64,000 nucleotides of DNA, from assembly GCA_902500205.1 (NCBI GenBank), contig GCA_902500205.1_4868.1. One strand, 5' to 3'. How positions within the stretch are numbered: position 1 is the first letter of the stretch; every line of letters begins with the position of its first letter. The notes under the pieces are model-generated. The model saw nothing but the letters and a program-made list of their open reading frames with translations. It was not told the origin of the DNA and searched no databases. A program made the translations under genes and the position numbers. This DNA comes from Escherichia coli. GTDB taxonomy: Bacteria; Pseudomonadota; Gammaproteobacteria; Enterobacterales; Enterobacteriaceae. Below, in pieces: positions 1,604-42,288 of this stretch.

Positions 1604-2155
1604 TTACGCTTGAGTCATGTCGGAGATGTCATAAACCAGACCGTTCAACTCAGTAACGGTGATCAGTTTACTGATATCGACACCATCGCTCGGAACTTCG
1701 GTCAAATAAACTTCAACCGTACCCGTCCACGCCAGTGACTTTCCATTGAAACGCAAATTGTGTTTCGTGGAAGACGTCATTGACTCCGTCGCATAAATCT
1801 CGCTCGCATCAATCAACCAATTGTACTTGGCCTGTAACAACGGAACGAGGTCGGCGGCTGTATTGGCGCTACTACCGTCCACAGACAGCACCACGTTTTC
1901 AAACAGGTGGGCTACGTCCAGTCGACGGTAAGTAAGACCCATCTTACCAAACGTACCTTTCTCAACGATACCAGAAACATCGAGACTGGTGTTCAGTCTG
2001 GTGTACTGTTCTGGGTCAGGATCGGCTGCGGTGATGTGCGACGGGTTACCGAACGACAATTTATCGATGGTCACGCCCTTACCAGTCAGTCCAGGATTCT
2101 GAGACACGATGAGATCGTAAACCAACTCTTTTGCGGTTTTTCCAAATAAACTCAT
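1604..2155 (-). CDS. hypothetical protein (183 aa), possible virion protein
   Basis: ATG start with AGAGG upstream; complete ORF. Confidence 0.7.
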   Translation of the reverse strand: MSLFGKTAKELVYDLIVSQNPGLTGKGVTIDKLSFGNPSHITAADPDPEQYTRLNTSLDVSGIVEKGTFGKMGLTYRRLDVAHLFENVVLSVDGSSANTAADLVPLLQAKYNWLIDASEIYATESMTSSTKHNLRFNGKSLAWTGTVEVYLTEVPSDGVDISKLITVTELNGLVYDISDMTQA

Positions 2156-2177: not shown

Positions 2178-4439
2178 CTATCGCGCTTGTGGTAGGAAAA
2201 TGTTCGCGATTTGTCGTGCTGGTATGATATCTAACGCGGCGTTGACGATGCTGCCCTGTGACCAGGCACTTGCCCAGTTCTGCGCCCAGATAGACGCGTT
2301 GATTTTAGCCTGCGCGATACCGTTGGTACGCTCGTAAAGCGTGGCAGCGCCCAACACAGACATAAATTCACTGAACTTGTTATCATCATCAAACACACCA
2401 ATATCGGTTACAATCGGCATGTACATAACGCGTGACAGGTCACGAATAGTTACCTGTATATCACATGACAACGGCAGACCGTCAGCACGCCACCCTAACC
2501 CACCTGTACCAAACTGGAGACTCAAGTTAGTTACCATGGCATTACGCATGGAATAACGACCACGAGAATAACACTCCAGATAGAACGGGTGCGTAAACGA
2601 TTGTTTACCGGTTGCTAACGGGCAAACTGCCGCTAACCAGAACGACAACGGGACAATCAGATCCTGGAACACATCTAAGTCGTTACCCGACCAACAGCGA
2701 AGGGGAATGCTTAGCGAGATATCGTCACCTGAGGTGTCTGAGGAGTCCCACACTTCCGGGAAGTCAATCACTGACGAGTTGTACAGCGACATAATCCCTG
2801 ATAAATGCAAGAAATCGAGTGCGCCTGTAAAGGCGGACTTCAACCCAGTAATGAGACCATCGACTGCGTCGAAACCAGTCTTACCACCAGAGAGGTTTAC
2901 TTCTAAAGAACGTGCTTTCTGTGTGGCGGAGTTAACCGTGCCAGAGATTTCAGGTTCTTTGGTGGTGTTGGAGAACGAACGCCCTACGGTATCACGTCCA
3001 TCAACACGCCAAGTAATCCACTGCGAACCATTGCGTATCTCCGAAGCGATGTTCGAAGTTAACCCATCCATAGCGCCTTCTAAAATATCGATATAGTCTT
3101 TGAAGACGCTACCGACAGATTCTTTCTGGCCTTGGTCCATCCAGTTTTCAATCTTCCCAATGTCGAGATTATTCTCATCCATTGAGTTTGCTTCGGTCTG
3201 ACTTTTAGCAACCTGTGCCTGGTTCTTTTCAACCTGTGCCATACGCTCGGCAAGCTCTTTACGTTGCGCATCACCTTCGTTTTCGAAGTTTTCAGCTTTA
3301 CCTCCTTGTGACTGAGCATCCTGAAGGCTTCCGTTCATCCCTGCTACCAGTTCGTCTTCTTTGTTATCGACGTTTTCAAAACCGGCATCGTACCCTTTAC
3401 CGGCTTTGGCTACGTATTCAAGGTTACGTAAAGAAACCTCGTACTGCGCAGCTTTCTCCAAATGGGTTGTTGAGTACGTCGCTTCCAGATAGAAGTTTCG
3501 CAAACGACGAGCCATGTCCTCTTCGTTACTCGACTCTTTACGAATTTTATCGATGGTTTTCGCCTGGTAGTTGGCTAATGTTTGGTAGCGGTTAATCATT
3601 CGATAGATATCGAACTCACCATCAGCTGTCCAGATTTCTGGCAGCATGGAGTACCACTCTTTACGGTCGCCGTTGTACTTGTTAGCAGTACCGCCTTTCT
3701 CAGACCCATCTACAGCATTAGCAAGCTGGAAAGTCCCTAACACACCCGTTGGCACCAATCGGCGATAAACTAACTGGGTGTTGACCATATTCTGCACAGC
3801 GCGCAGATACAAGTGCATTGTCGGTTTCACGTAGTAGTAGCGAGAAGTCTGCTTGTTCAGCACCATCTTCAACATACGTGGTGTAATTAGAATAACCGCA
3901 AAGGCAACCGTACCTACTGCGGCCCATATTGCTGCGGCGGCAACATACGTCCCCATCGCACGCAACATACCAGGGTAGTCACCTGTGCGCGCCAGATACG
4001 CTAGGTTGGAATCGTACATATTCGCGAAGAATGCAGCGACCCCGATATATCGAGGTTTACCGAAACGACAATGAAGATAAAAACTGTTTTGGTTAATAGC
4101 TTCGTAATAGAAAGTCCCTAAACGATAGGAACCACGTTGGTCTTGACCTTTAACGTACTTTGAGTACGAGCCACGACCTGCATCAGGTTGTGCAAAAGCA
4201 CCTGTTGAACTCGGATCAGCAAACATCGTAAACTGCGGCGGCGCATTTAACGCTTGCGAACCACCCATCGTGGTATCTTCAAACGAGAGCATCGCGTTAG
4301 AGTAACGACGCAAACCCAGGAAGCGCTCATCGCGTTGTGCGGTTGTACCGCCAAACAGGCCGGTTACCCATCCTGAATCTTTTAGTTGTCTTGCTTCCAC
4401 GTAAAACCTCTCTGTAAGATGATTAGGGGGTGTTGCCAC
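2178..4439 (-). CDS. hypothetical large protein (753 aa) with coiled-coil region and one hydrophobic segment
   Basis: GTG start 9 nt downstream of giant gene stop; hydrophobic stretch TYVAAAAIWAAVGTVAFAVILI. Confidence 0.7.
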   Translation of the reverse strand: MATPPNHLTERFYVEARQLKDSGWVTGLFGGTTAQRDERFLGLRRYSNAMLSFEDTTMGGSQALNAPPQFTMFADPSSTGAFAQPDAGRGSYSKYVKGQDQRGSYRLGTFYYEAINQNSFYLHCRFGKPRYIGVAAFFANMYDSNLAYLARTGDYPGMLRAMGTYVAAAAIWAAVGTVAFAVILITPRMLKMVLNKQTSRYYYVKPTMHLYLRAVQNMVNTQLVYRRLVPTGVLGTFQLANAVDGSEKGGTANKYNGDRKEWYSMLPEIWTADGEFDIYRMINRYQTLANYQAKTIDKIRKESSNEEDMARRLRNFYLEATYSTTHLEKAAQYEVSLRNLEYVAKAGKGYDAGFENVDNKEDELVAGMNGSLQDAQSQGGKAENFENEGDAQRKELAERMAQVEKNQAQVAKSQTEANSMDENNLDIGKIENWMDQGQKESVGSVFKDYIDILEGAMDGLTSNIASEIRNGSQWITWRVDGRDTVGRSFSNTTKEPEISGTVNSATQKARSLEVNLSGGKTGFDAVDGLITGLKSAFTGALDFLHLSGIMSLYNSSVIDFPEVWDSSDTSGDDISLSIPLRCWSGNDLDVFQDLIVPLSFWLAAVCPLATGKQSFTHPFYLECYSRGRYSMRNAMVTNLSLQFGTGGLGWRADGLPLSCDIQVTIRDLSRVMYMPIVTDIGVFDDDNKFSEFMSVLGAATLYERTNGIAQAKINASIWAQNWASAWSQGSIVNAALDIIPARQIANIFLPQAR

Positions 4440-4448
4440 CCCCTACGA

Positions 4449-7400
4449 TTAGCTTGCTTTCCGACTTACGTTTAACGACGGTGTCGGTTGGGTTATTTCC
4501 TGCCTACGTGCAGCTGAGCCCGGAGGAGCCACATTTGCCGCTTGCTGGATACTACCACCCCGTGTGTCGTTTGCCGCTCTTGGATTTGATTTCAAAATAT
4601 CACGAATCTCTTTCAAGTAATCGCGAGACTGAATCAGTACCTTGAGCTGCTGAACATCTATCGGGTCACCATTCAGCGTTGGCGTCGATGCTGTAGCATC
4701 AGAAGTTGGAGCGGCAACTGGACGAGCTGCTGCGTTAACCTGCGCTTCCGCGCCTGCTTTCACTTTAGCAACATCCGTTGCAGACAATCCTTCTGCTGCA
4801 GCTTGCGACGCTACGGTTTCGGCTGTTGTTGAGGCATCGGATGTTCCGGAACCACCTGTAGTTGGTGTAGGTGCTGCTGGTCCTACATTACCTGCGGCGG
4901 TAGCCATTGCATCTTGTGCCGCCATGGCCCCTTTCTGCGTCAATGCGTCATCACGACGATTAGCATTATCTGCTGGCAGGTTATCTGCTGGCGACAGACT
5001 CGGGTCATTAGCGGCCGGTGCACCCATTGCTGCTGCCGGGTTGGTTGGTGAGTTAGGCGACAATCCTGCAACCATATCCTTCGTCTTGCTCGGGTCGGCA
5101 GCGACTTCGTTGGCGGAAATTGCGCCCATGCGGCGGTTCAGTTCCTGAATAACCCCGTCTACGCTACGTATACGACCGTTGCTGTAGAAGACGTTGGCAT
5201 TCCCTCTCAATATTGCGGATGTAATCCCAGGAGCACTCGATGCCGCCATGTTCGGATTACGCTTCCATGCTTCCAGGAATTTCTTACCGCCGCCTGCACC
5301 CAGGAAGTGGTACAGATAAGCCACGGCTGGAGGTGGTGCTTTACCACCCAGGTCACGCTGTGCTTGTTGGATGTTGTCACGAATGAACTGTACACCCAAT
5401 ATAGCATTCGCCCACGGGTCCATTTGGTTAACACGCGGAATACCAAACTTCCGCGAATACCCCTTCATCATCCCGTTCCACGTGCCGTCAATGAACTGGA
5501 ACAGCCCAGACGCCGAAGCATACGGGTTTTTAGCGGTGTAGTTAAATCCGGACTCCGCCTTAGCCATTGCTAACGCCACTGCAGGTGGCACGCCCATCAT
5601 GTTCGCCGCATCGGTAATCAATGCTTTGATATTCGGAACGTTCAACGCACCCTTTCTACCCAACATTTCTATCGGGTATTTTTCAGCCAGTGACTTATAA
5701 TCACCGTCTTTCACATCACTCAGGTTAATCGAAGACGAACCAGTGGTCATTGCAGCGTAGTTCCGCACACCACCAACCGCATCGACGACTTGACCCAAGT
5801 TACCCGGCACACCACCACTCGTACCCGATGGAATGTAGCCTGAGGCGCGAGCACCGTCAGATGACAAAGAATCTCCCGAACTGATGTTCGAGTCTTCTTC
5901 ATCTTCATCGGTGACTTCCAGAGAACTGCGGTTCTTGTTACGATCCTTCCAGCGCGCACGCTTGCCATTATTTCTAATGGCTTTAATCATGTTACGCACG
6001 GCAAGGTCAGCTTCTTTTGACAGCAGCTTCAGCGTTTCCAGTTCGGCTTTGATGGACGATGGGTTCGTGTTAGCCTCACCCCCTAATGGGTTGATATTCA
6101 CTTCCCACACCGACTGTCTTATACCACCTTTCAAGCTGTAGGCTGTTGACATCATCAAGCTGATTTCGTACAGGTAGCCGCCGGTCAGCTTCAAGTTCAG
6201 CGGATCGGCTGTTGGCAGGTAACGCTTCACCCCAACCAAATACGTCATGAATACCGGTAAGAAACGGTCAAAGAACCACCGTTTCAAACGATCTTCTTTC
6301 GGTGTACCGATAGCGTCTGGAACCATCGAGGCGATTGCTTTCTTCCAATCTCCTTTGTAGCTTGCGGTTTTCACGTCAATGTCTTTGATGACGTTCTTCT
6401 CGAATACCGTGATCAAAGTGCGGGTGGCGTTATCGATGGTGGTAAAGCCGTAAGTCTTCCAACGCACCGATTCCATCGCATTCATGTCTTTCTGGTCGAG
6501 CACCGCATTCCAGTCTACCTGAATCTGAACCTGCTCTGTTCCGTCTTCCCAACCTTCTACCTTCGCCAGATTTTTGTTACGTTCGTTATCCAGCTGTCCT
6601 AGTTTGTTGATAGCTTCATCAACGCCAGCGGATTTAATCCCCTCCACGGCCGGTGCCATTCCGTACTTACGTGCTTTCTTATCGTCCATTCTGGACTTGA
6701 TTGCACGCTCGACTTCATTCTGCACTTCCATAACCTCTTCACCGCTCAAAAACTCCTTCGGTGTAAAGGTTACGACGTCCCAAGCCTTCGAGAAGAAACC
6801 TTGGTTGACTTTGCGTGGGTCAGTTAACGAAGAGAACGCTTTTGCATCCTTAGTCATCTTCATTTTGTTGAAGAGAGTCAGCATGTCCTCTTTCGATACT
6901 TTCTTCGCATCGCCGACGTCAGCCAACTGGATACTGTTCGGCATTGACTTCAGTGCCGTAATCCAGCGGAGATAAATCGGAATAAAGCGCTGAAGCATAA
7001 ACGCTTGGAAGGCCAACATCTCGCCTTTTTCCTCAACGTTAATACCGAACCCTTCAGCTAGCTTCTGAACGTCTTTTCCACTTAGCCCGCGGAGACTGGC
7101 TTGGCCATCTTCCGCGTAAGACACATACTCACGCAATGCGTCTTCTAAGTAACGCGCTTTCGCCCCGTCGTCCGACGACCACTTATCGTAATCACGGAAA
7201 CCGTACTGAGCTAAACGCATCTTATCCAGGTACTGGGTATAGGTAGTCGTTGCAATCCTGTACGCGGCGTAACCAGCCGCGGCGATCGCACCACCGATAA
7301 GAATTGCCGGCCAGCCCACTGCTGTCACGACGGCAGATGCCGCAGTTGCCACAGCGGACACCGCGGGTGCCGCCAAACGGGTTACTGCGAACTTACCGAC

Positions 7401-10400
7401 ATTCCACGCAGCCTTACCTAAAAGACCTACTGGTTTTAACACACCCCATTTCGTGATAGAACCGAGTATATTACCCACAGTTCCCAAGATACTGACGATG
7501 GGACCGATGATAGGTAAGCCTTTCACCATATCCCACAGACCGCCAGATTTCCCTTTGGAGCCCCGCGCTTTCTCTTTCTTCTCCTTACGTTTCTCACGCC
7601 AACGTTTGAAGAAGTTAAGGTAGTCGCGTTTTTCATCACTTTCAGGTGGCTTGTTACGTTTACCGAACTTCGCAAACATGGTACGAATAATGCCATCGTC
7701 ACCACCTGCACGGGATACTGATTCGCGCATGGTGTTAAACCATGACATCTCTTGCAAGCCGATCATTCGGTCCAAGCGTTCGAATAACCTTGCACCTGCA
7801 GACTTGGCAGCATTCTTCCCTTTGTTGATAACCCGACCTGCTGCATCGCGCGCGGTCTCAAGGTCGTCCTTCGCGTCACCGTAGACTTTACGGCCAGAAA
7901 GACCACCTTTCGCGTTCAAATGGCTGCGATAAAACTCAGCAACATCGTCATCACGTCCAGCCAACCGACGTTCAACTTCGTAACGTGTAGCAATGTCGTG
8001 TCGTGCTCCACGATATCCATCGAGCATATCCCCAGCCCGGCCTCGGAAACCACTGAACCAACCACGCAGGCGGTCACGTCCACGACCAAAGAACGCTTTT
8101 GTTCTTGACCAACGTCCACCAAAACGTTCAGACAATGACGATTTCGCACGATTATACGCCCCGCGAACTGCACGGCCGATCGTACTACCACCGCCACCGA
8201 CACCCTTCTCCATTTCTTCTGTCCAACTTTCGTCTTCCGGATCACCCGGTAAACGTTGGTTCAACAGTTTGTAGATACGGATAAGAATGTGGTTGGTTTT
8301 CTTGCCGGTTGATGAGAAGAGACTGAAACCACCACCCCCACCATCTTTACGGCCTTTCCACCAACGCGTCAGTGGGTTGTCGGTAATCATGTCTTTCAGA
8401 CGGTCGACACCACGTTTCGCAAAACCGAGCACTTTACCCGGTAAGCTCGTTACGCGGTTGAACGCTTTCTGGAGACGTGTCTTTTCTTCGCCTTCCGGAA
8501 TCTCGTTCAGCCAGTCCTTAATCTTACCAACGATGCTGCCCGCTTTCGGTGACAGGAAATCCAGGAACCGTTTCGGTAGCTTAGCCACCTTATTAAAGCC
8601 TAAGCCAATCTTACTGGCCAGACCTTGGGTCAGTGCTTGGATTTTCCCGCCTTTATAGTAGCGGAGTTTACCCGCAGCGGCTAAGTCAGCGGCTGCTAAT
8701 ACCAGATTACCTGCGGAGTCAACAATATCACTCCCCAGTTTGATGTCGTCCAGCGTTTTCAGCTGAACCATTTTACCATCAATGACCTGATAGTATTCTC
8801 CAGCTTCCAGACGCGCACCTTGCAGAACAACATTACCGTGGTCATCGTAAACGTCGCGGATACCCAGCAATCCTTTACCGAAAGAGCTTACCGCTTCAAA
8901 GCCCCCACGGACACTACCGCTGATAAGGCCACGCATCCGGGTTAAGAAACCAGGACCTTCTCCGCCGCCCATCCCCGCGATTTTACCGCGCGCCCAGCCA
9001 CCGAACTGATTCAGTTTATTCCAGGCACCTTTAACACCACGTTTTGCAAAGCCACCGATTCCTGCTGCAGTGTCGAACAACACACCGCCCCAACGACGAA
9101 TAAGCCCATCCTCACCGATGATAATACGGCGGCGTTTACCGCCACCGCTACCACCACCAGGACGAGGTGGTCCCATCTCTTCGTCACCAGAACCAGCACC
9201 CCCTGCTAACGAAGCCAGGAGAACCCCTTCTTCGTCCATACTTCTGACGTGTTCCAGAATTTTCTGGAGGGTGTCACTGTTGTTGTTACCCCGAATCGCT
9301 TCGATGATACCGTCAAAGTTATTCCGTGGTGCTTCTTCGCCACGGTTACGTTGACTCAACAATTCAACAAAGTTAGTCGAGGTTTCACCGTAGAGAACTG
9401 CGGCTAACTGCCGAGGCGACATTCCGCGGCCTTTACCACCGCCACGTAAAGCCGGCGGCAACGACGTGTCATCGGCACCACCACTTGCCCCTTGGTTCAT
9501 TCGGCGCAGATAGTCGCCTAACGCCGAACCGTTTTGCAGCTTACGTTGAATCTCCTGCTCACGAGTCAACGCACGACCGCTGCGTGTCTTACCCATTGCC
9601 AAGTCATTAAACAAGGTATAGGGATCGGACAGGTCTTTATCCACGCCGAAAGTGTCACTCTTCGCGTCGTAGTTAAAGATACCCGCATCGCGCAATGCTC
9701 GCTCACCGTAAATATTCACCGCCTCGTCGATAATTGCCTGACGTTGGGTGATAGATGACTGCACTGTGGAGATTTTGCGGGCCAGCTCGTTACTTAATTC
9801 GTTGCTACCGCCGACCAAGCTATCAGAATGCCCCTGTAACGCTTCCTTAATGCGTTCTGCGGCGTTTCCTGGCATATACCGATGAAGATGCATCGGGTCT
9901 TTCAGAATCGCTTCTACGTCGAATGCACGACCCTGCGAGGCACGTGACTCGATATAGTCGGCAAGATGCTGCCGATCCTTCTGCGAGAGCGTTTTGCCAC
10001 GGTCAACAAAATCTACAGTGCTGTTAATGGAATTTTGGAGACGCAGACGTTGCTCATCGTTTGCAACCGCCTTGCGTACGCGGTTACCGAGCACTTTGCG
10101 GTCTACAAAACCGCGGCTGGTGATGTCGTATTCCAGGTCGGCATGTTCGCCATAACCCCGACGAACAGATTTGTTAATCTCTGCCAGCCAGGCAGGAATA
10201 ACTTCAACCAGGCTAAGATATGCTTTACGGTCAAATTTCGCCGAACGGCTTAACGTTTCGCCATTACGTTCGTCAAGGAAGGCTTTCTCACGGTTTAACG
10301 GTTGGACAATACCGAGTTCATTCAATACCCGGAACAAATCCGCCAACGGTCCTTGCGTTTCGCCTGCGATGGCCGAGTTAGAGATAGAGGAAAGATTACC

Positions 10401-11570
10401 AAAGGTGAACGCGCCTTTCTGCAGGCGTTTCATGACCTCTGGATTTTTCTCCATCTCCTCGCGAGTCCATTTCTGGAGTTTCTCGATTTGTGGGCCGAGT
10501 AGTTTCTTCGCAAGGAATCCACTACCCCACGCAGTTGCTTTATCGCGAGCATTTGTTTTGCGACGTTCAGCAGTCAACGAAGAGCTGTCGCTCATGCCGA
10601 AATCGTCTTCAACACCCATGCCGAGAACAGACTCTAACAAACCACGACCTTCGCCAAATATACCAGAAATCTTCTTCTTGGTATTTTCGCGAATCATGTC
10701 CATAAACCCGTCAGCATAACGCAACGGGTTCATCCATTCCGCAGCCTGGCGTTTAACGTTCGCCCAACGGACTTCTGAGAAATCTTCCTTCGCGTAATCC
10801 GGCAATGCCGTGTTCTTCACGATGGCTTCTAAAGCAGGCGTATTACGATCGAACTCCGACTGCTTCATCTTCACGATGTCTTGAATGGCGAACAGGGTAC
10901 GGTATTGCAATTCGAGTTTCTTACGCTCGATGTTTAAGAATACCCCACGGCTTAACCCGGTTAACAGGTTAATGTCCTTCGCCATTCCAATCATGGTTTG
11001 GTGCATTGCATCCGCGCGCATCTCTTTGATGCTGTCGCGGAGCTTATCCTCTACCATGCGGTCCTGCAGCTGACGTTGTTCGTCGGCGTCCTTTGGCACA
11101 CCTGAGAATACGTCGCCCAGTTCACGATCCATCAATGCCTGATTCGGATCGTAGTTCTGGTAATCTAACTGGTCAGATTTTGACCACTTGTCGAAGCGCT
11201 TAGTAACTGCATCCGGCAAGTATTTCTTCATCGTCGGACCGAGTTGGCGCGCTTGCATCTTCAGCGTGCGCTCGGTCTTCTCAAGCTCCCCTTTCGTATG
11301 GGCGTAAATGTCCTTTGCTGCAGCTGCCGCTGACTGATAACCCTCGTATGCATCAGCTGCCGGCTTAGGCATCCCCTTGAGGATAACTTGGTCGCGTTTC
11401 CCTTCTGGCCAGATAGTTGACAACGCCGACTTCCTGGCAACATTCAGGGTACTGAGTATCGGGCTTCGTTTTTTCTCGTCTTTGGGACGGGGTGGTTCAC
11501 CGAAATCATCCCAGTCGTCGAGTCTATCTAAATCGATATCATCGAAACCGTCTTTGCCTCTTTTTGCCAT
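4449..11570 (-). CDS. giant virion protein (2373 aa) with C-terminal SLT-type lytic transglycosylase domain (phiKZ gp181-like)
   Basis: Single 7.1-kb ORF; C-terminal [35 protein letters not shown]...[10 protein letters not shown] matches SLT motifs (DNA about 5060-5440); Gly-rich low-complexity segments. Confidence 0.85.
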   Translation of the reverse strand: [2373 protein letters not shown]

Positions 11571-11600
11571 AATGTTTCTTCCAATTCAGGAGCCTAAAAA

Positions 11601-13214
11601 GTGAGAAAGCTTAACTGGGTAGATTTTTATCTACTGAACGTTAATAAGTCCCTGGTGTCGCATTTAAAACCAGTTACAACAACAGACACCTTTCAGGGAC
11701 TGACGAAAAACTTTCACCCTGAAGGACTGTATTCAACCGAAATTTTTGGCCTCACAGGGAGCGAAGCACGAGACTCAACGTTCTCGTACATTGATATCAA
11801 ACTGGATATCATTTCGCCGACCGTTTGTTTGGCATTGTTCCAGCTGAAACAGCTGTACGAAGAAATCTGTTCCGGGAAGCGATTCGCTATCTGGAATGAG
11901 AAAGAAAAAGATTTCGAGCCGGCTCTGCCCAGTGATAAAGGTGCAGACACCGGCTTCAACTTCTTCCTACGCTACTACGAACAACTGACACCGGGACGCA
12001 ACGAGTCGATGCGTCGCGACGAGACAGTCGATTTCTTCAATAAGTTCCGTCCGGTCAGTCTCAGCCGCTATGTGCTGGTTCTGCCTGCGGGATTACGTGA
12101 TTTGGTCATTCGTCAGGATGGCCGCGACCAAGAAGAAGAGATTGGCGGACTCTACCGTCGTCTGATTTCTCTGGCGCGTGCAATCCCCGACCGCAGTACG
12201 CGAACGGAACTGACTGACCCGGTTCGCTGGAAGCTCCAACAAACCTTTAATGACATCTGGATGTACTTCTTCAACATCCAGGATGGTAAAGGTGGTTTTG
12301 CACGTCGTAAAGTGACGTCACGTAAGTTAATGAACGGTACGCGTAACGTACTGTCTTCATTCTCAACCGGTTCCAAGGTCATGGGTCGCGAAGATGCGAT
12401 TCGTCCAACGGATACCCGTATCGGTTTGTACCAAACCCTGAAGGCATTACTGCCTGTGGCTCAATACCACATCCGTGAACGTTACCTCAGTAACATCCGG
12501 GCAGGGGACGGCAACTTATACGGCGTTAACACCAAAACACTCAAGCGTGAGTTCCTGGAAGTCTCCGGGCGGGTGTATGACCTTTTCACTACCGACGATG
12601 GCATCGAAACACTCATCAACAGAATGGAAGCGCGCGAGCTTCGACATAAACCGCTGATGATTGATCCGGACCATTACGTGGCATTAATCTACCAGGACAA
12701 ACGCAGCTTCAAAATCTTTTACGATATTGAAGACCTGCCGGAAGGACGTGACCGTAAGCTTGTCCGCGGACTGAGCTTAGCGGAACTCCTCTATTTGTCA
12801 GGTTACGATATTTGGAATGACTACTTCTCGTTCATCACGCGTTATCCGGTTACGGGACGCGGTTCGACTTACTCCTCGACCATAAGATTGGAGACCACCA
12901 CTTCTTCCCTCTATTTGCATGAACTGGAAGACGATTGGGTCACGTTAAAAGAGAAGGGTGCAATTAGTTTCCCTGACCGTACCGTGAAAACCTTTGTGGA
13001 ATCCATGGCACCACACCCATCCCGATTAGGGGGCTTGGGTGGTGACTACGATGGTGACACCGGCTCAGCAAACTGCCCGATGTCAACCGAAGCGCTCGAG
13101 GAAAATCGGAAGTGGGTCAGTTCGAAAAACTACTGGTTTGCAACAGACGGCAGTTTCAAAATCAATCCGGTTAATAACGTGATTAAAAGAACGACTGCTG
13201 CGCTGTTGAAATGA
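11601..13214 (+). CDS. RNA polymerase beta-prime-like subunit fragment carrying DYDGD (NADFDGD-like) motif; candidate virion RNAP subunit
   Basis: GTG start with AGGAG 9 nt upstream; GGDYDGDTG near residue 475, matching position of NADFDGD in bacterial beta-prime. Confidence 0.55.
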   Translation: MRKLNWVDFYLLNVNKSLVSHLKPVTTTDTFQGLTKNFHPEGLYSTEIFGLTGSEARDSTFSYIDIKLDIISPTVCLALFQLKQLYEEICSGKRFAIWNEKEKDFEPALPSDKGADTGFNFFLRYYEQLTPGRNESMRRDETVDFFNKFRPVSLSRYVLVLPAGLRDLVIRQDGRDQEEEIGGLYRRLISLARAIPDRSTRTELTDPVRWKLQQTFNDIWMYFFNIQDGKGGFARRKVTSRKLMNGTRNVLSSFSTGSKVMGREDAIRPTDTRIGLYQTLKALLPVAQYHIRERYLSNIRAGDGNLYGVNTKTLKREFLEVSGRVYDLFTTDDGIETLINRMEARELRHKPLMIDPDHYVALIYQDKRSFKIFYDIEDLPEGRDRKLVRGLSLAELLYLSGYDIWNDYFSFITRYPVTGRGSTYSSTIRLETTTSSLYLHELEDDWVTLKEKGAISFPDRTVKTFVESMAPHPSRLGGLGGDYDGDTGSANCPMSTEALEENRKWVSSKNYWFATDGSFKINPVNNVIKRTTAALLK

Positions 13215-13232
13215 TACCCATAAGGCACATGT

Positions 13233-16200
13233 ATGATTTTTCTGAAACAGTTTAACCAGCGCTTTACCGTGCGCAAGACCGATGAGTTCGGTCGTCCGCG
13301 TATTATCCCGCTGGAGAAGCTCCAGCTCCCACGTGGTTCTATCTACCACACCATCGATTTAGACCAGGTGGTTTTAGCACCACCGTTAACCACACCATGT
13401 TTTGGTCAGCTGGAAAAACCGGCGATGATTCGTCACCACTTCCAGCTGCCTGAAGACGGCATTATTGGCCACCCGCGTAAGAAACCGGTTGTTGGTCAAG
13501 AGCGCCAAATCTTCCAGTACCATCGTAACAACCGTCGTATTCGTCGCATGATTGAAGACGGCGTGGTACGTTCCGATCCGAAAGTGCTGCTCATCGAAAA
13601 CTACACCCCGATGCTGCCGCATTATTTCTACCCTGATACTCTGATGTCCTGGTACGAACGTCTGCACAACATTCAGCTGCTGATAACTAACCAGATGAAA
13701 ACTGACTCACGTGAGTACATGCGTCAGAACTACTACATCATCGAACTGGGTAACGTACTGCCTTCTTTCGATCGTTTTAAAATGACGTATAACGATCGTG
13801 TTAAAACCAAACTGGAGCGCTTTAAGGACTTTAATCTCCTGTGGTTACTGGAACTGTTCGGTTGGGCTTACGGCGATCAGCAAGCAACCCTGTTTGACGG
13901 TATGGACATGAACCAGCTGTCACGTGTGAACTTTATCTTCACGCACAACGGTGGTTTTACATCCATGAACATGGGTGTAATTGAAAGAATGCGTAAGTCT
14001 GCCGGTGGTCGTTTGACTGACGTGCAGATGGGCAGAATGTTCTACCGTACACTGACTACTGTGATGACCACACCGCCGTCTACCGACTACGAAGATGACG
14101 AGTTCGTTACACCGGAAGGGGACGAACGCGTACATCTGGGAGAGGACGACGATGTTGTTGAAGCCGTTGCCAGTAAACCGGAAGAAACCCTCGATATCGT
14201 CGACGATGAAGCAACACAAAGCGACAACGTTGACGATATATTGAACGATCATGAGTTCGATGAGAAAGAAGATCTGGTCATCGAAGCGCCGAAAGAAGAT
14301 GTCAAACCAACCACCATCGTCGTAGAACGCACCATCCCACACGATGCTGTGATTAAACAGGAAGTTGAGCGCCTGGCAGAAGCGGGCCGCGTCACCGCCA
14401 AAGCGTATCAGTTCCTGAACGAATCTTCTAAACGTTTCGTAAACTTACCCAACCCGTACAATCCTAAAGAGACGTACGGCGAAGGCCTGACCATCGATCC
14501 GAAGAAACTCGAAGTTAAAGCCGAGCCTAAGAAGATTGAACGCTTAGTTACGGATGAAGCCTGGGCGGAAAATACCACCGACCAAATCATTCGTCAGTAC
14601 AACCAGGAAATCTTCCCGAAAGATATTCTGGGGGCAGTAGCGTCATCCCAACGTCTTGGTTTAGCGATTCACAATCACACTGTCGAGAAAGAGATTTCCG
14701 TTACCGGGAATATCGAACACCACACGTTGCGTATTCAGCCGATTGGCGGAGAACCAACCACGGTACGTTTCTCAATTCCTGCATTAACCGAAGACGGTAC
14801 TTGGGTTGCAAATGGTGTGGAATATACAATGCGTCGTCAGCGTGTTGATCTTCCTATCCGTAAAGTGTCCCACGATACCGTAGCGTTAACCACTGCCTAC
14901 GGGAAGAACTTTGTCCGTCGCAGTGATAAAGTCGTCAATGATTACGGACGTTGGCTCACTAATGCGATTATTACTCGCGCGGTCGATCCGAAGAACACCG
15001 AAATTACTGATGCAAAACTGGCGAATGTGTTCGATCCGCTGTCTAAACTGCCGCGTCAGTACACCGAGGTGGCACGTCGTGTAGCAGCGTTCAACGCAAT
15101 TGGGTACCAATGGAACTTTGACATTAAACAGAAAGCGGCATTCTTTAACGAAGGGCAACTGGCAGACGCGGACCGTGTCGAGCTGGTACCTGTGGCGAAG
15201 AAACCGCGGAGTCATGTCATCGTCGGTATGGATAAAAACTCCCAGCTCTATCGAGTGGATAAGGATAAGACCGAACCACTGGGTACGCTCGCCGAAGTCT
15301 TTGGCGTGGACACCTCTAAGGCTCCACGTGAAATGACCGAACTGTCACTGATGGGCAAATCAATCTCGCTGGGCTTTGTGTTTGCGTACTATCTCGGGTT
15401 AACCGGGATGTTGAAACACTTTGGTATCAGTTACGAGGTTCTCTCTGTCGGACAACGTATCGATAAAGGTCAGTTCGACTCCATTATTCGTCTCCAGGAT
15501 GCGAAAATTGCAATTGTCTGCGAGAACGATCAACAGAGGATGATTGTCAACGGCTTAGACCGTTACATTAAACATTTTACCACGTATACCGAGTCGGAAG
15601 TTGACCGGGAAGACATTTACCTGAACCTGTTACGCGATGCAGATGGGCTAACACCACGCTACATCAAAGAGCTGAAACTGATGCGGACCGCATTTGTTGA
15701 TGACATGCACGCGCGTATCCTCAGGAAAATGGGCGAGCCGGAAACCTTTATCGGCTTACTGGAGCGTTCTAACGAACTGCTGCAGACGGACCACACGTTA
15801 CCGGAAATTAACGGTGACGAAATGATGTTCATCGGGAACCAACGTATTTCGTATCACATCTACACCGCGATGGTGCGGGCGATGCGTAACTACAACAACG
15901 CGCCTAACTCAAATCGTAAGTTTGAGTTGACGCAGGACATGGTGTGGGGTGCAATTAACTCCGACCCGTCTGTTCTGCTGGCTCCTGGCGCAAACCCGGT
16001 ACAGAACATCAAAGAAAAAGATGTTGTTACCATGGGCGGTACAGGTGGTCGTAACCGCAAGACCATGGTCTACAGTACCCGTGAATTCCAACCGAGCGAC
16101 CTGGGGATTATCTCCGGTAACACGGTCGATAACGGCGACGTAGGTATCACCGCCTTTGCAACAAACAATCCGCGTTACGACACCGTGGACGGCACGACCT

Positions 16201-17438
16201 TTAAAAAGGACCTCGATAAACTGAAGCCAGGTGAGGCACTGTCATTTATTGATGGCTTGGTGCCGGATACCCTGATGGACGATGCTAAGCGTCAGAACTT
16301 CGTTGGGATTCAATTCGGTTCTGCGACCAGTTGTGTTGGCGCAACCACCACACCGTATCGTACCGAGCAAGAAAAGTTCGTGGCACACCGTACTTCTGTG
16401 AAGCACGCACGCGTAATCGATAAACCTGGCAAGATTGTGGAGGTTCTTAACGACCACGTTAAAATCAAATACGACGACGGAGAGGAAGAAGCTTTCCCAC
16501 TGGGCCGTTGGTTCGGTCCGCACGAAGGGACTTACTACCCACACACTCTGGTAACGAAATGGAAGCGCGGAGATAAACTCCCTGCCGGTGCCGTTATCAC
16601 GTACAACGAACAACACTTTGAACCAGACATCTACGATCCAACGCAGGTCAGTTTTAAAAACGGGATACTGGCAACTGTCGCTTTGATTGAAGGGGAAGAA
16701 GTAATTGAGGACTCCAACGCCATTAGTGAGCGGTTCGCTGCTAAGGCTGAAGCCGATGTTACCAAACTCAAAGAAGTCACAATGACGTTTACCCAGAACC
16801 TGTTGGAGATGGTAAAAGAAGGGGACCACGTAGACGTGGATTCAATTCTATGCACCTTCACCGACAACCTGACCGGCGATATGAGCGGGTTCAGTAAAGA
16901 AGCAGCGGAAACGCTGCGTGAGTTAAGCTCCTTTGCACCACGCTCTGGTGTTCGTGGGTTTATCGACAAAATCGAAGTGGTTTACCACGGCGAGGTGGAA
17001 GATATGACCCCGTCTTTGGCGGAGATGGTTCGTAAATACGACCGTATACGTCGGAAGACTGCGCTGGCTCTCAAACGTGACGAGCCGAAGGACGGTCGAG
17101 TCAACGGTGATTTTCGTGTTGAGGGGGTGCCGTTAGCGTACAATAGCCTGTGTGTCCGATTCTACATCACACACCGGGTAGAGATGGCAGCAGCGGATAA
17201 GATGGTTATTGCTAACCAGCTGAAAACGACGGTTCAGGAAGTGATGTATGGAACCAACAAAACGGAAGACGGGCAGGAACTCGACATTATCTTTGGTCGT
17301 GATTCCGTCGACGCACGTATCGTAGGTTCTATCATGCGCATCGGAACCACCAACGCTGTCGGGTATCGTGGTGGGGAGAATATCGGACGCATCTTAGATG
17401 GTGAAGACGTCCCAGCCTTGCCGGCTAAAATCAACTAA
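13233..17438 (+). CDS. large protein (1401 aa), function unassigned; possibly RNAP-associated
   Basis: Long ORF immediately downstream of beta-prime-like gene; no motif I can name confidently. Confidence 0.8.
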   Translation: MIFLKQFNQRFTVRKTDEFGRPRIIPLEKLQLPRGSIYHTIDLDQVVLAPPLTTPCFGQLEKPAMIRHHFQLPEDGIIGHPRKKPVVGQERQIFQYHRNNRRIRRMIEDGVVRSDPKVLLIENYTPMLPHYFYPDTLMSWYERLHNIQLLITNQMKTDSREYMRQNYYIIELGNVLPSFDRFKMTYNDRVKTKLERFKDFNLLWLLELFGWAYGDQQATLFDGMDMNQLSRVNFIFTHNGGFTSMNMGVIERMRKSAGGRLTDVQMGRMFYRTLTTVMTTPPSTDYEDDEFVTPEGDERVHLGEDDDVVEAVASKPEETLDIVDDEATQSDNVDDILNDHEFDEKEDLVIEAPKEDVKPTTIVVERTIPHDAVIKQEVERLAEAGRVTAKAYQFLNESSKRFVNLPNPYNPKETYGEGLTIDPKKLEVKAEPKKIERLVTDEAWAENTTDQIIRQYNQEIFPKDILGAVASSQRLGLAIHNHTVEKEISVTGNIEHHTLRIQPIGGEPTTVRFSIPALTEDGTWVANGVEYTMRRQRVDLPIRKVSHDTVALTTAYGKNFVRRSDKVVNDYGRWLTNAIITRAVDPKNTEITDAKLANVFDPLSKLPRQYTEVARRVAAFNAIGYQWNFDIKQKAAFFNEGQLADADRVELVPVAKKPRSHVIVGMDKNSQLYRVDKDKTEPLGTLAEVFGVDTSKAPREMTELSLMGKSISLGFVFAYYLGLTGMLKHFGISYEVLSVGQRIDKGQFDSIIRLQDAKIAIVCENDQQRMIVNGLDRYIKHFTTYTESEVDREDIYLNLLRDADGLTPRYIKELKLMRTAFVDDMHARILRKMGEPETFIGLLERSNELLQTDHTLPEINGDEMMFIGNQRISYHIYTAMVRAMRNYNNAPNSNRKFELTQDMVWGAINSDPSVLLAPGANPVQNIKEKDVVTMGGTGGRNRKTMVYSTREFQPSDLGIISGNTVDNGDVGITAFATNNPRYDTVDGTTFKKDLDKLKPGEALSFIDGLVPDTLMDDAKRQNFVGIQFGSATSCVGATTTPYRTEQEKFVAHRTSVKHARVIDKPGKIVEVLNDHVKIKYDDGEEEAFPLGRWFGPHEGTYYPHTLVTKWKRGDKLPAGAVITYNEQHFEPDIYDPTQVSFKNGILATVALIEGEEVIEDSNAISERFAAKAEADVTKLKEVTMTFTQNLLEMVKEGDHVDVDSILCTFTDNLTGDMSGFSKEAAETLRELSSFAPRSGVRGFIDKIEVVYHGEVEDMTPSLAEMVRKYDRIRRKTALALKRDEPKDGRVNGDFRVEGVPLAYNSLCVRFYITHRVEMAAADKMVIANQLKTTVQEVMYGTNKTEDGQELDIIFGRDSVDARIVGSIMRIGTTNAVGYRGGENIGRILDGEDVPALPAKIN

Positions 17439-42212: not shown

Positions 42213-42288
42213 AGGAAAGTGACGCAATTGGTAGCGTACCGGTCTCCAAAACCGGCTGTTTAGAGTTCGAGTCTCTACTTTCCTGCCA
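42213..42288 (+). tRNA. tRNA-Trp (anticodon CCA) with encoded 3-prime CCA
   Basis: Hand-folded cloverleaf: 7-bp acceptor AGGAAAG/CTTTCCT, D-arm ACGC/GCGT, anticodon stem CCGGT/ACCGG with loop CTCCAAA, T-arm TAGAG-TTCGAGT-CTCTA, discriminator G then CCA. Confidence 0.85.

What the first reader, a model, noticed from the sequence alone, without database searches (positions are those of the whole stretch)
4449..11570. 2373-aa giant protein: lytic transglycosylase domain embedded in low-complexity Gly-rich and charged regions
A single 7.1-kb ORF ends in a clear SLT-type domain (AESGF...GLFQFI...Y) preceded by long Gly-rich tracts (GGGSGGGKRRR, GGGGGFSLFSS) and charged coiled-coil-like stretches. 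This matches the giant cell-wall-degrading virion protein of phiKZ-like phages and is followed 9 nt later by a 753-aa protein with a hydrophobic segment.
Basis: partly seen in the sequence, partly recalled or inferred. Interest (0 to 1): 0.4.

Follow-up and report, generated by a model that had tools for sequence, protein, structure and literature searches.

The report
Known jumbo-phage tape-measure protein with lysin
The 2373-residue gene is the already described giant tail protein of SPN3US-like Salmonella jumbo phages, the counterpart of phiKZ gp181: a probable tail tape measure that carries a cell-wall-cutting domain, so the finding is real but ordinary.

Summary
The ORF is real: 4449..11570, minus strand, 2373 aa, 259.2 kDa. 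The exact protein is already in NCBI (WP_210761260.1). It is 99% identical to gp239 of Salmonella jumbo phage SPN3US (genus Seoulvirus), which the literature calls the tail tape measure protein and finds missing from tailless particles.

It is collinear and syntenic with phiKZ gp181. Upstream lie divergent virion RNA-polymerase beta/beta' genes. Downstream lies the homologue of phiKZ gp182 / Goslar gp203, the tail-tube initiator or "spacer" ring.

Two corrections:
- The domain does not end the protein; 223 residues follow it.
- The downstream gene most likely starts 48 nt after the stop, not 9 nt, giving 740 aa.

Added anatomy:
- a helical N-terminal third;
- a variable Gly-rich, basic middle;
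- family-conserved hydrophobic segments at aa 1348-1436;
- a tandem duplicated ~140-aa domain not mentioned in the papers read;
- conserved termini.

Relatives swap the lysin module (GH19, extra M23 or VanY, or none).

Best reading: a T5-pb2-like tape measure and lysin expelled from the tail tube at infection. Novelty: already known. Interest is low.

The parts
4449..11570 (-). Whole gene: 2373-aa, 259-kDa giant tail protein. It is the orthologue of SPN3US gp239 and phiKZ gp181. Stop codon TAA at 4449-4451.
   Evidence: 97-98% nucleotide and 99% amino-acid identity to Seoulvirus phages. Exact sequence is WP_210761260.1. Full-length match to phrog_3201.
11466..11570 (-). aa 1-35: acidic N-terminal tip (DDIDLDRLDDWDDFGEPP...R). 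It is conserved across the family and predicted disordered.
   Evidence: M1, D10 and R35 are invariant. N-termini of distant relatives are compared. pLDDT is below 50.
10311..11465 (-). aa 36-420: very long predicted alpha-helices (69-117, 163-253, 258-316, 334-401). An invariant KNTALPDYAK motif (aa 252-261) sits at a helix break. This is the candidate ruler part.
9621..10253 (-). aa 440-650: compact, mostly helical conserved domain with the highest confidence in the N-terminal model.
   Evidence: pLDDT about 75-89. Conservation profile.
7530..9620 (-). aa 651-1347: variable, Gly-rich (16% overall, 30% at aa 801-900) and net basic region (125 K+R against 83 D+E). It has one conserved island at aa 901-1000.
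7263..7529 (-). aa 1348-1436: hydrophobic, transmembrane-like segments (aa 1348-1373 and 1399-1436).
   Evidence: Kyte-Doolittle 19-aa windows reach 1.9. A hydrophobic segment lies just upstream of repeat 1 in 92 of 93 relatives. 124 of 135 hydrophobic segments in the family fall there.
6807..7241 (-). aa 1444-1588: copy 1 of a tandem duplicated ~140-aa alpha/beta domain (motifs RLAQYG ... RFIPIY).
   Evidence: hhalign of copy 1 against copy 2: probability 98.9%, E 1.7e-17. Reciprocal HMM hits. R1452, Y1456 and G1457 invariant. pLDDT 80-94. No match in solved structures.
6078..6488 (-). aa 1695-1831: copy 2 of the duplicated domain (motifs RWKTYG ... RFLPVF).
5646..5981 (-). aa 1864-1975: acidic, Ser/Gly-rich linker that is poorly conserved. 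About aa 1864-1933 are predicted disordered.
   Evidence: pLDDT below 50 for model residues 425-494. Low conservation.
5121..5621 (-). aa 1984-2150: SLT-type (gp144-like) lytic transglycosylase domain. Catalytic Glu E2006 is at nt 5553-5555 and Tyr Y2085 at nt 5316-5318.
4671..5120 (-). aa 2151-2300: Ala/Pro/Ser/Thr-rich low-complexity spacer. Its sequence varies, but the distance from the lysin domain to the C-terminus is held at about 200-225 aa across the family.
4452..4670 (-). aa 2301-2373: what looks by eye like a C-terminal amphipathic helix (about aa 2303-2328, not modelled) and the terminal motif ...TQPTPSLNVSRKAS. The pattern helix, spacer, P-[IL]-[SN]-[VM]-[SG]-R recurs in distant relatives. 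This is the candidate hub-docking end.
   Evidence: C-termini of 22 diverse relatives compared. A nearly invariant Leu near the C-terminal end of the alignment. The docking role is inferred by analogy with T5 pb2 (PMC10038345).
2178..4400 (-). Downstream gene, most likely 740 aa from GTG 4400. It is the homologue of SPN3US gp238, phiKZ gp182 (baseplate 'spacer' ring) and Goslar gp203 (tail-tube initiator complex).
   Evidence: BLASTP to the phiKZ-type gp182, E 6e-41. PDB PHIKZ182 9xqs_K, E 2e-62, and 11lx_H. phrog_3181 alignment starts at residue 15 of the 753-aa ORF. SPN3US annotation. PMC13250141. Goslar preprint.
4425..4444 (-). RNA hairpin AGGGGGUG-GCAA-CACCCCCU, starting 5 nt after the stop codon. 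No U-tract follows. It contains the alternative GTG at 4439.
   Evidence: Sequence. ViennaRNA -16.2 kcal/mol. Not reported by the terminator scan.

Best explanation
The gene encodes the SPN3US gp239 / phiKZ gp181-type giant tail protein of a Seoulvirus (SPN3US-like, phiKZ-related) jumbo myophage.

Shown here or in the literature:
- It is a virion protein associated with the tail.
- Its phiKZ counterpart is essential.
- It is encoded next to the tail-tube initiator ring gene.
- It carries a gp144-like lytic transglycosylase domain with an intact catalytic Glu/Tyr pair.

Inferred:
- It works as a multifunctional tape measure, like T5 pb2.
- During assembly a few copies sit in the tail-tube lumen. 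The conserved C-terminus docks in the hub and initiator complex. The helical N-terminal part (about 1350 aa, roughly 2000 A if extended at 1.5 A per residue) runs up the tube and sets its length.
- After sheath contraction and loss of the spike, the protein is expelled C-terminus first.
- The transglycosylase domain (aa 1984-2150) opens the peptidoglycan locally.
- The conserved hydrophobic segments (aa 1348-1436), possibly with the adjacent duplicated domain, insert into a host membrane and help form the conduit for DNA and ejected proteins.
For: Identity:
- The exact sequence is in NCBI.
- 99% amino-acid identity to SPN3US gp239, with the same mass of 259 kDa (PMC10052503).
- Full-length match to phrog_3201.

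Orthology with phiKZ gp181:
- Collinear BLASTP matches at both the N-terminal and C-terminal halves.
- Identical synteny.

Tail location and essentiality:
- gp239 is absent from tailless SPN3US particles and is called the tape measure (PMC5105663 and PMC10052503).
- The neighbouring gene encodes the tube-initiator/spacer ring.

Lysin domain:
-.
- gp144 catalysis uses E115/Y197 (PMC5406664).
- A phiKZ gp181 fragment is muralytic according to the review PMC5380687.
- Relatives exchange the module: GH19 instead of SLT, M23 or VanY added, or none. This marks it as a cargo enzyme on a conserved scaffold.

Tape-measure-like anatomy:
- Very long predicted helices in the N-terminal third.
- Family-wide hydrophobic segments at a fixed position.
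- Conserved termini.
- The same order of parts as T5 pb2: helical part, hydrophobic stretch, muralytic domain, C-terminal coil in the hub.

Geometry: three to six copies would fill only 13-26% of a 68 A by 2000 A lumen (dimensions from PMC13250141).
Against: - No structure shows this protein in the tube lumen. The phiKZ atlas (40 proteins) has no text mention of gp181, a tape measure or lumen density. The Goslar model (28 proteins) has no mention of gp181, a tape measure or a transglycosylase.
- No tail-length mutant exists.
- The classical rule of about 1.5 A per residue gives 3560 A for the whole protein against a tail of about 2000 A in phiKZ. The rule can hold only for a sub-region, and the Gly-rich middle is unlikely to be an extended helix.
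- No Pfam tape-measure family matches.
- There is no upstream chaperone gene with a frameshift; the upstream gene is an RNA polymerase subunit on the other strand.
- One relative (P0093) lacks a lysin domain and one (P0077) has Val in place of the catalytic Glu, so peptidoglycan cleavage is not indispensable to the scaffold.
- Membrane insertion is inferred from hydropathy only.
Confidence: 0.75

Rival explanations
1. It is a tail-internal or hub-associated lysin and channel-forming 'ejectosome' protein that is expelled at infection but does not determine tail length. The ruler would be something else, or the tube length would be set differently.
For: - The length does not fit 1.5 A per residue for the whole protein.
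- Large parts are globular (duplicated domain, SLT) or Gly-rich rather than helical.
- It has not been modelled in either chimallivirus structure.
Against: - Searches did not reveal another tape-measure candidate among the genes flanking this ORF, and the literature names gp239/orf181 as the tape measure. The rest of the window and the rest of the genome were not screened.
- Family length is tightly held at about 2200-2570 aa over deep divergence, as expected for a ruler.
- The N-terminal third is long helices.
Confidence: 0.12
2. It forms the needle-like cell-puncturing device at the baseplate centre, analogous to T4 gp5. This was the original proposal for phiKZ gp181 and 201phi2-1 gp276.
For: - The review table and the 201phi2-1 annotation call it a cell-puncturing device.
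- Like T4 gp5, it is a virion-borne lysin.
Against: - The phiKZ atlas assigns the spike to gp164, the tip to gp163.1 and the hub to gp101, with gp182 as spacer. gp181 is not among the named components of that central assembly.
- Goslar shows the same T4-like hub and spike built from other proteins.
- No OB-fold or beta-helix spike domain was detected by Pfam or in the modelled two thirds. The models of aa 1-650 and 1440-2150 are helical or lysozyme-like.
Confidence: 0.05
3. It is a tail fibre, as most GenBank records annotate it.
For: Database labels read 'putative tail fiber protein', and the PHROG label reads 'tail fiber protein'.
Against: - No fibre-type domain was detected by Pfam or in the modelled regions.
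- The only recognisable module is a peptidoglycan hydrolase, which acts beneath the outer membrane.
- It has hydrophobic transmembrane-like segments.
- phiKZ fibres are built from the gp131 paralogue family.
- The label appears to be propagated annotation without experimental basis.
Confidence: 0.03
4. It is a head-packaged ejection protein, like T7 gp16, rather than a tail component.
For: - Chimalliviruses package and inject many proteins.
- T7 gp16 also carries a lytic transglycosylase domain.
Against: - SPN3US gp239 is missing or strongly depleted in tailless head preparations that retain the head and ejection proteins.
- The gene sits next to a baseplate gene.
Confidence: 0.05

Closest known systems
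Salmonella phage SPN3US gp239 (YP_009153533.1), 'tail tape measure protein'
   Same: About 99% amino-acid identity over all 2373 residues, with the same mass, neighbours and orientation. It has been detected in virions and is depleted in tailless particles.
   Different: Only a few dozen substitutions at most. GenBank labels it 'tail fiber protein', whereas the papers call it the tape measure.
Pseudomonas phage phiKZ gp181 (2237-aa structural peptidoglycan hydrolase) and 201phi2-1 gp276
   Same: - Collinear homology at the N-terminal about 600 aa and from the hydrophobic segment through the duplicated domain to the SLT domain.
- The same synteny with the vRNAP beta/beta' genes and the gp182 homologue.
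- The lysin domain lies about 200 aa before the C-terminus.
- Essential in phiKZ.
   Different: - Only 20-25% identity outside the lysin domain, and 35.6% by tblastn within it.
- The central Gly-rich and basic region is not alignable and is about 130 aa longer here.
phiKZ endolysin / neck protein gp144 (PDB 3bkh, 9xps_S)
   Different: gp144 is a 260-aa free enzyme with an N-terminal peptidoglycan-binding domain, and in the virion it acts as a neck 'wedge'. Here the domain is embedded at 84-91% of a 2373-aa scaffold.
Phage T5 tape measure protein pb2
   Same: The same order of functional parts: a long helical region in the tube lumen, a hydrophobic stretch compatible with transmembrane helices, a muralytic domain, and a C-terminal coil docked in the hub. 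pb2 is expelled on triggering (PMC10038345).
   Different: - No sequence similarity was detected.
- The T5 enzyme is a metallopeptidase, not a transglycosylase.
- T5 is a siphophage with a 160-nm tail and a 1219-aa tape measure.
- pb2 is proteolytically cleaved, which is not known for gp239.
- The duplicated domain and the Gly-rich region have no pb2 counterpart.
T7 gp16 internal core protein (PDB 6yt5_G)
   Different: gp16 is packaged in the head, its domain is N-terminal, and it is much smaller. Here the protein is tail-associated.

Membership tests
phiKZ gp181 / SPN3US gp239 giant tail protein family (phrog_3201) | Full-length collinear sequence homology | tested here: met
   phrog_3201 scores 2457 bits and extends to the last profile position. 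There are 94 clusters of 2094-2862 aa. BLASTP to the phiKZ-type gp181 and to 201phi2-1 gp276 matches at both halves.
phiKZ gp181 / SPN3US gp239 giant tail protein family (phrog_3201) | Conserved gene neighbourhood: divergent from the virion RNAP beta'/beta genes, followed by the gp182-type tube-initiator/spacer gene | tested here: met
   Window ORFs 11601-13214 and 13233-17438 (+) match RNAP beta PHROGs. The same layout is seen in SPN3US, a phiKZ-like phage and 201phi2-1. The downstream protein matches PHIKZ182.
phiKZ gp181 / SPN3US gp239 giant tail protein family (phrog_3201) | Peptidoglycan hydrolase module about 200-225 aa before the C-terminus | tested here: met
   The domain ends 223 aa before the C-terminus here and about 180-260 aa before it in nearly all relatives.
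phiKZ gp181 / SPN3US gp239 giant tail protein family (phrog_3201) | Virion protein located in the tail | not testable with these tools
   Literature only, for the 99%-identical SPN3US gp239 (PMC5105663, PMC10052503).
SLT / family-1 lytic transglycosylase (Pfam PF01464) | Profile match above the curated threshold | tested here: met
   39.1 bits against a 21.3 cut-off, E 6.1e-10, aa 1984-2072.
SLT / family-1 lytic transglycosylase (Pfam PF01464) | Catalytic Glu (E-S motif) and the supporting Tyr | tested here: met
   E2006-S2007 and Y2085 align with gp144 E115-S116 and Y197 (PMC5406664). They are invariant in 35 sequences. The Glu is present in 86 of 87 relatives.
SLT / family-1 lytic transglycosylase (Pfam PF01464) | Lysozyme-like alpha-helical fold | tested here: met
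SLT / family-1 lytic transglycosylase (Pfam PF01464) | Muralytic activity producing 1,6-anhydro-muropeptides | not testable with these tools
   Activity is reported only for the phiKZ gp181 fragment, cited in review PMC5380687.
Tail tape measure proteins | Longest tail gene, placed beside baseplate hub or tube-initiator genes | tested here: met
   It is the largest ORF of the first 20 kb of the window and the largest virion protein of SPN3US. It lies immediately upstream of the tube-initiator/spacer gene.
Tail tape measure proteins | Predominantly long alpha-helical or coiled-coil structure | tested here: inconclusive
   aa 36-420 are predicted as very long helices at modest confidence. aa 651-1347 are Gly-rich and were not modelled. 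aa 1440-2150 are globular domains.
Tail tape measure proteins | Protein length proportional to tail length (about 1.5 A per residue) | tested here: not met
   2373 aa at 1.5 A per residue gives 3560 A, against a tail of about 2000 A in phiKZ. The rule would hold only if just the N-terminal ~1350 aa (2020 A) act as the ruler, which is a post-hoc fit. No tail length for SPN3US was found in the one paper searched for it.
Tail tape measure proteins | Match to a known tape-measure sequence family | tested here: not met
   No Pfam hit other than SLT and SLT_4 at E 0.01 or better. The PDB sequence search finds only gp144.
Tail tape measure proteins | Upstream tail-assembly chaperone pair with a programmed frameshift (lambda G/GT type; not universal in myophages) | tested here: not met
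   The upstream neighbour is an RNAP subunit gene on the opposite strand, only 30 nt away.
Tail tape measure proteins | Resides in the tube lumen, and deletions shorten the tail | not testable with these tools
   The solved phiKZ and Goslar virion structures do not assign any lumen density.
Tail fibre proteins (database label) | Fibre-forming or receptor-binding domains | tested here: not met
   No such Pfam domain. The models of aa 1-650 and 1440-2150 are helical or lysozyme-like. aa 651-1439 and 2151-2373 were not modelled.
T4 gp5-type cell-puncturing spike | OB-fold plus beta-helix spike sitting under the hub | tested here: not met
   No such domains were detected by Pfam or in the modelled regions. 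The spike position in phiKZ and Goslar is occupied by other proteins.

The most novel reading that the evidence does not exclude
The family-conserved block of hydrophobic segments plus the tandem duplicated ~140-aa domain (aa 1348-1831) has no match in solved structures and is not mentioned in the papers I read. It could be the device by which chimalliviruses couple the tail tube to the host inner membrane and shape the membrane-bound early-infection (EPI) vesicle that receives the genome. In that case this 'tape measure' would be a determinant of the chimallivirus-specific entry route rather than only a ruler with a lysin.
Probability: 0.1. Interest if true: 0.6.

Novelty: already known. Interest (0 to 1): 0.12.

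Why it matters
As a discovery it matters little. The gene, its transglycosylase domain, its tail association and its probable tape-measure role are already in the literature for SPN3US and phiKZ, and the exact protein is in NCBI.

The modest value added here is threefold:
- **Annotation.** The widespread 'tail fiber protein' label is unsupported. The downstream gene is the tube-initiator/spacer ring, and its start codon is probably 48 nt, not 9 nt, after the stop.
- **A residue-level domain map.** It includes a tandem duplicated domain not mentioned in the papers read, a fixed-position hydrophobic block, and conserved termini.
- **Module exchange.** The peptidoglycan-hydrolase module is exchangeable across the family (SLT, GH19, extra M23 or VanY, none).

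These features define testable constructs for an open question in the field: how chimalliviruses cross the envelope and deliver DNA into a vesicle.

Tried and rejected
- **Family alignment.** MAFFT with --auto on all 94 full-length relatives timed out. It was replaced by FFT-NS-2.
- **Internal repeats.** Self-BLAST of the protein found none. Only profile methods detect the duplication.
- **Promoters and terminators.** The sigma-70 promoter and intrinsic-terminator scans over 4000-12200 gave no more sites than shuffled sequence. The hairpin after the stop codon lacks a U-tract.
- **Tail length.** I looked for an SPN3US tail length to test the ruler rule and found none in the one paper searched for it, so phiKZ dimensions were used.
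- **Structural papers.** I searched the phiKZ atlas and the Goslar preprint for a tape measure, gp181 or lumen density. Neither discusses it.
- **E. coli genomes.** Complete RefSeq E. coli genomes contain no copy, even though the exact protein is filed under E. coli in NCBI.
- **Rejected readings.** Tail fibre, T4-gp5-like spike and head ejection protein (see the rival explanations).
Full report
**1. Observation**

The window holds an uninterrupted ORF at 4449..11570 on the minus strand (ATG start, TAA stop). It encodes 2373 aa, 259.2 kDa, pI 9.5, with no cysteine.

- AESGF at aa 2005-2009
- GLFQFI at aa 2022-2027
- GGGSGGGKRRR at aa 805-815
- GGGGGFSLFSS at aa 1077-1087

Glycine reaches 30% in aa 801-900, and aa 951-1400 are net basic. 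An ORF this long is not a chance feature, and it is conserved full length in 94 protein clusters.

Two details need correction.
- The SLT domain is not at the end. It spans aa 1984-2150 and is followed by 223 residues.
- The downstream '753-aa protein 9 nt later' is only the longest mechanical ORF.
  - Its GTG at 4439 lies in the 5' arm of a -16.2 kcal/mol hairpin (4425-4444) and has no spaced ribosome-binding site.
  - The GTG at 4400 has GAGAGG 6 nt upstream.
  - GTG 4400 coincides with the annotated SPN3US start and with position 2 of the PHROG profile.
  - The likely product is therefore 740 aa, starting 48 nt after the stop.

**2. What it is**

The DNA of the ORF is 97-98% identical to SPN3US-like Salmonella, Escherichia and Proteus jumbo phages (genus Seoulvirus). 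The protein is about 99% identical to theirs. The rest of the window is about 98% identical to the same genomes.

The exact protein sequence is already in NCBI as WP_210761260.1 / VVZ87629.1. It is filed under Escherichia coli on a 240,589-bp contig, which is a whole phage genome inside a bacterial assembly.

It corresponds to SPN3US gp239 (YP_009153533.1). Published proteomics describes that protein as the 259-kDa tail tape measure protein. It is the largest virion protein, and it is missing or strongly depleted in tailless particles (PMC5105663, PMC5694885, PMC10052503).

**3. Relationship to phiKZ gp181**

BLASTP against the 2236-aa protein of a phiKZ-like phage gives collinear matches at two places:
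- aa 12-603 to 26-631
- aa 1383-2148 to 1296-2046

201phi2-1 gp276 behaves the same way.

The neighbourhood is the same in all of these phages. The giant gene diverges from the virion RNA polymerase beta'/beta genes. Here these are 11601-13214 and 13233-17438 on the plus strand, only 30 nt away. The giant gene is followed by the gp182 homologue.

The downstream protein matches three PDB chains:
- PHIKZ182 (9xqs_K), E 2e-62
- Goslar 'tail tube initiator complex protein gp203' (11lx_H)
- a third chain (36za) labelled 'Capsid decorator gp77', E 5.2e-56

In the phiKZ atlas, gp182 is the hexameric 'spacer' ring between the tube initiator and the hub (PMC13250141). In Goslar, gp203 is the lower ring of a T4 gp48/gp54-like initiator complex.

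**4. The lysin domain**

- Pfam SLT (PF01464) matches aa 1984-2072 at 39.1 bits against a cut-off of 21.3.
- The only solved relatives by sequence are phiKZ gp144 chains, E about 2e-15.
- In that alignment E2006 and Y2085 sit on gp144 E115 and Y197, the principal catalytic pair. Y2038 and D2065 sit on the proposed secondary pair Y147/E178 (PMC5406664).
- In a 35-sequence alignment E2006, S2007, the GLFQF core and Y2085 are invariant.
- Among 87 relatives with a BLAST-detectable domain, 86 keep the Glu.
- An AlphaFold2 model of aa 1440-2150 has mean pLDDT 78.6, and about 85-96 within the domain.

**5. Anatomy of the rest**

This section combines a family conservation profile, two AF2 models and composition.

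- **aa 1-35.** A conserved acidic tip, predicted disordered.
- **aa 36-420.** Very long helices (69-117, 163-253, 258-316, 334-401), with an invariant KNTALPDYAK motif at a helix break.
- **aa 651-1347.** Variable, Gly-rich and basic, with one conserved island at aa 901-1000.
- **aa 1348-1436.** Two hydrophobic, transmembrane-like segments. A hydrophobic segment lies just upstream of the next domain in 92 of 93 relatives, and 124 of the family's 135 hydrophobic segments fall there.
- **aa 1444-1588 and 1695-1831.** Two copies of one ~140-aa alpha/beta domain, with motifs R-x-AQYG / RWKTYG and RFIPIY / RFLPVF.
  - hhalign gives probability 98.9%, E 1.7e-17, and reciprocal HMM hits confirm it.
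  - Both copies are confidently modelled.
  - Neither has a match in solved structures.
  - I found no mention of this duplication in the papers read.
- **aa 1864-1975.** An acidic Ser/Gly linker that is poorly conserved; about aa 1864-1933 are predicted disordered.
- **aa 1984-2150.** The transglycosylase domain.
- **aa 2151-2300.** An Ala/Pro/Ser/Thr-rich spacer whose sequence varies but whose length is held.
- **aa 2301-2373.** What looks like an amphipathic helix, followed by a terminal P-[IL]-[SN]-[VM]-[SG]-R-type motif that recurs in distant relatives.

**6. The lysin module is exchangeable on a conserved scaffold**

| Relative(s) | Module |
|---|---|
| P0041, P0043, P0044, P0094 | GH19 (PF00182); in P0041 at aa 2261-2320 of 2550, where the others carry SLT |
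| P0084 | SLT plus a Peptidase_M23 domain after it |
| P0087 | VanY domain before the SLT |
| P0089 | Divergent SLT |
| P0093 | No enzyme domain in its last 620 aa, although it keeps the hydrophobic block and both repeat copies |
| P0077 | Val in place of the catalytic Glu |

Total length stays within about 2200-2570 aa for most members despite identities down to about 25%.

**7. Mechanism**

Shown, here or in the literature:
- tail-associated virion protein;
- essential in phiKZ;
- encoded next to the tube-initiator ring gene;
- intact lytic transglycosylase domain.

Inferred: it acts as a multifunctional tape measure in the manner of T5 pb2. pb2 has the same order of parts: a helical lumen segment, then 46 hydrophobic residues, then a muralytic domain, then a C-terminal coil docked in the hub. 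On triggering it is expelled to digest peptidoglycan and form a membrane channel (PMC10038345).

By analogy:
1. The conserved C-terminus would dock in the hub and initiator complex.
2. The lysin would be the first part to reach the periplasm after the spike leaves.
3. The hydrophobic block would follow and insert into a membrane.
4. The N-terminal helical part would be the ruler.

Geometry is compatible. Three to six copies would occupy 13-26% of a 68 A by 2000 A lumen (dimensions from PMC13250141).

The classical 1.5 A per residue rule fails for the whole protein (3560 A against about 2000 A). It fits only if about the first 1350 residues measure the tube (2020 A), which is a post-hoc fit. 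Direct evidence for lumen location or ruler function does not exist. In the phiKZ atlas I found no text mention of gp181, a tape measure or lumen density. In the Goslar preprint I found no mention of gp181, a tape measure or a transglycosylase.

**8. Rivals**

- **Spike or needle.** This was the original proposal for gp181 and gp276. The solved baseplates contradict it, because other proteins form the spike, tip and hub.
- **Tail fibre.** This is the database label. It has no support from domains or models.
- **Head ejection protein.** This conflicts with the tailless-particle proteomics.
- **Tail-internal lysin and channel protein that is not the ruler.** This is the most serious rival. Only length-mutant genetics can separate it from the tape-measure reading.

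**9. Verdict**

The feature is already known: an exact database match, an orthologue of published SPN3US gp239 and phiKZ gp181.

The small additions are the domain map, the duplicated domain, the fixed hydrophobic block, the exchangeable enzyme module and the corrected neighbour annotation. Interest is low.

The only route to higher interest is the untested idea that the hydrophobic block plus duplicated domain takes part in the chimallivirus-specific delivery of DNA into the EPI vesicle. The field regards that delivery step as an open question.

Noticed in passing
Not in the window: GenBank LR535917.1 (Salmonella phage SPFM20; protein P0052). LR535901.1 (SPFM1) gave an odd partial hit (aa 992-1815, 30% identity).: The SPFM20 'putative phage tail fiber protein' (2364 aa) is this same protein with its 20-aa blocks in reversed order. 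Un-reversing the blocks restores 2336 of 2373 identities. This implies that the 60-nt lines of the deposited genome are in reversed order without complementing. It is a database artefact that produces odd short BLAST hits.
   Followed up: yes
window 4425-4444 (minus strand): A perfect 8-bp GC-rich hairpin with a GCAA loop (-16.2 kcal/mol) starts 5 nt after the stop codon of the giant gene. No U-tract follows. It buries the alternative GTG start (4439) of the downstream gene. It may be an mRNA-stability or processing element, or a phage-RNAP terminator. Its conservation in other phages was not examined.
   Followed up: partly
window 11571-11600: Only 30 nt separate the divergent start codons of the giant tail gene (ATG 11570, minus strand) and the RNA polymerase subunit gene (GTG 11601, plus strand). 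The promoters and 5' UTRs of both genes must therefore overlap the neighbour's coding sequence. The sigma-70 scan found nothing there, as expected for a phage that uses its own polymerases.
   Followed up: no
Relatives P0041, P0043, P0044, P0094, P0084, P0087, P0093, P0077: Natural variants of the family replace the SLT module by GH19, add M23 or VanY peptidase domains, lack any enzyme domain (P0093), or carry Val at the catalytic Glu (P0077). This is a ready-made comparative series for asking whether the lysin is needed for infection.
   Followed up: partly
window 1604-2155 (minus strand): This 183-aa protein has a DUF7941 domain (Pfam E 1e-26) and matches PHROG 'virion structural protein' families. 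The Goslar preprint reports DUF7941 proteins as very abundant chimallivirus virion components of unknown role. No homologue with a solved structure was found by sequence.
   Followed up: partly
NCBI WP_210761260.1 / VVZ87629.1; many Salmonella enterica accessions in the same 90% cluster: The exact protein is filed as an Escherichia coli protein on a 240,589-bp contig, and 462 cluster members come largely from Salmonella and E. coli isolate assemblies. Whole jumbo-phage genomes are evidently riding along in bacterial isolate assemblies, through carrier state, pseudolysogeny or contamination. No copy is present in complete RefSeq E. coli genomes.
   Followed up: partly
PDB 36za chain rp: A chain named 'Capsid decorator gp77' (648 aa) matches the tube-initiator/spacer homologue encoded at 2178-4400 with E 5e-56. 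It aligns over the same region as PHIKZ182 and Goslar gp203. Either the deposited name is misleading, or that phage uses the fold elsewhere.
   Followed up: no
window 42213-42288 (plus strand): This is the only tRNA gene found in the window, tRNA-Trp (CCA). It is also annotated in the related phage EC001.
   Followed up: no
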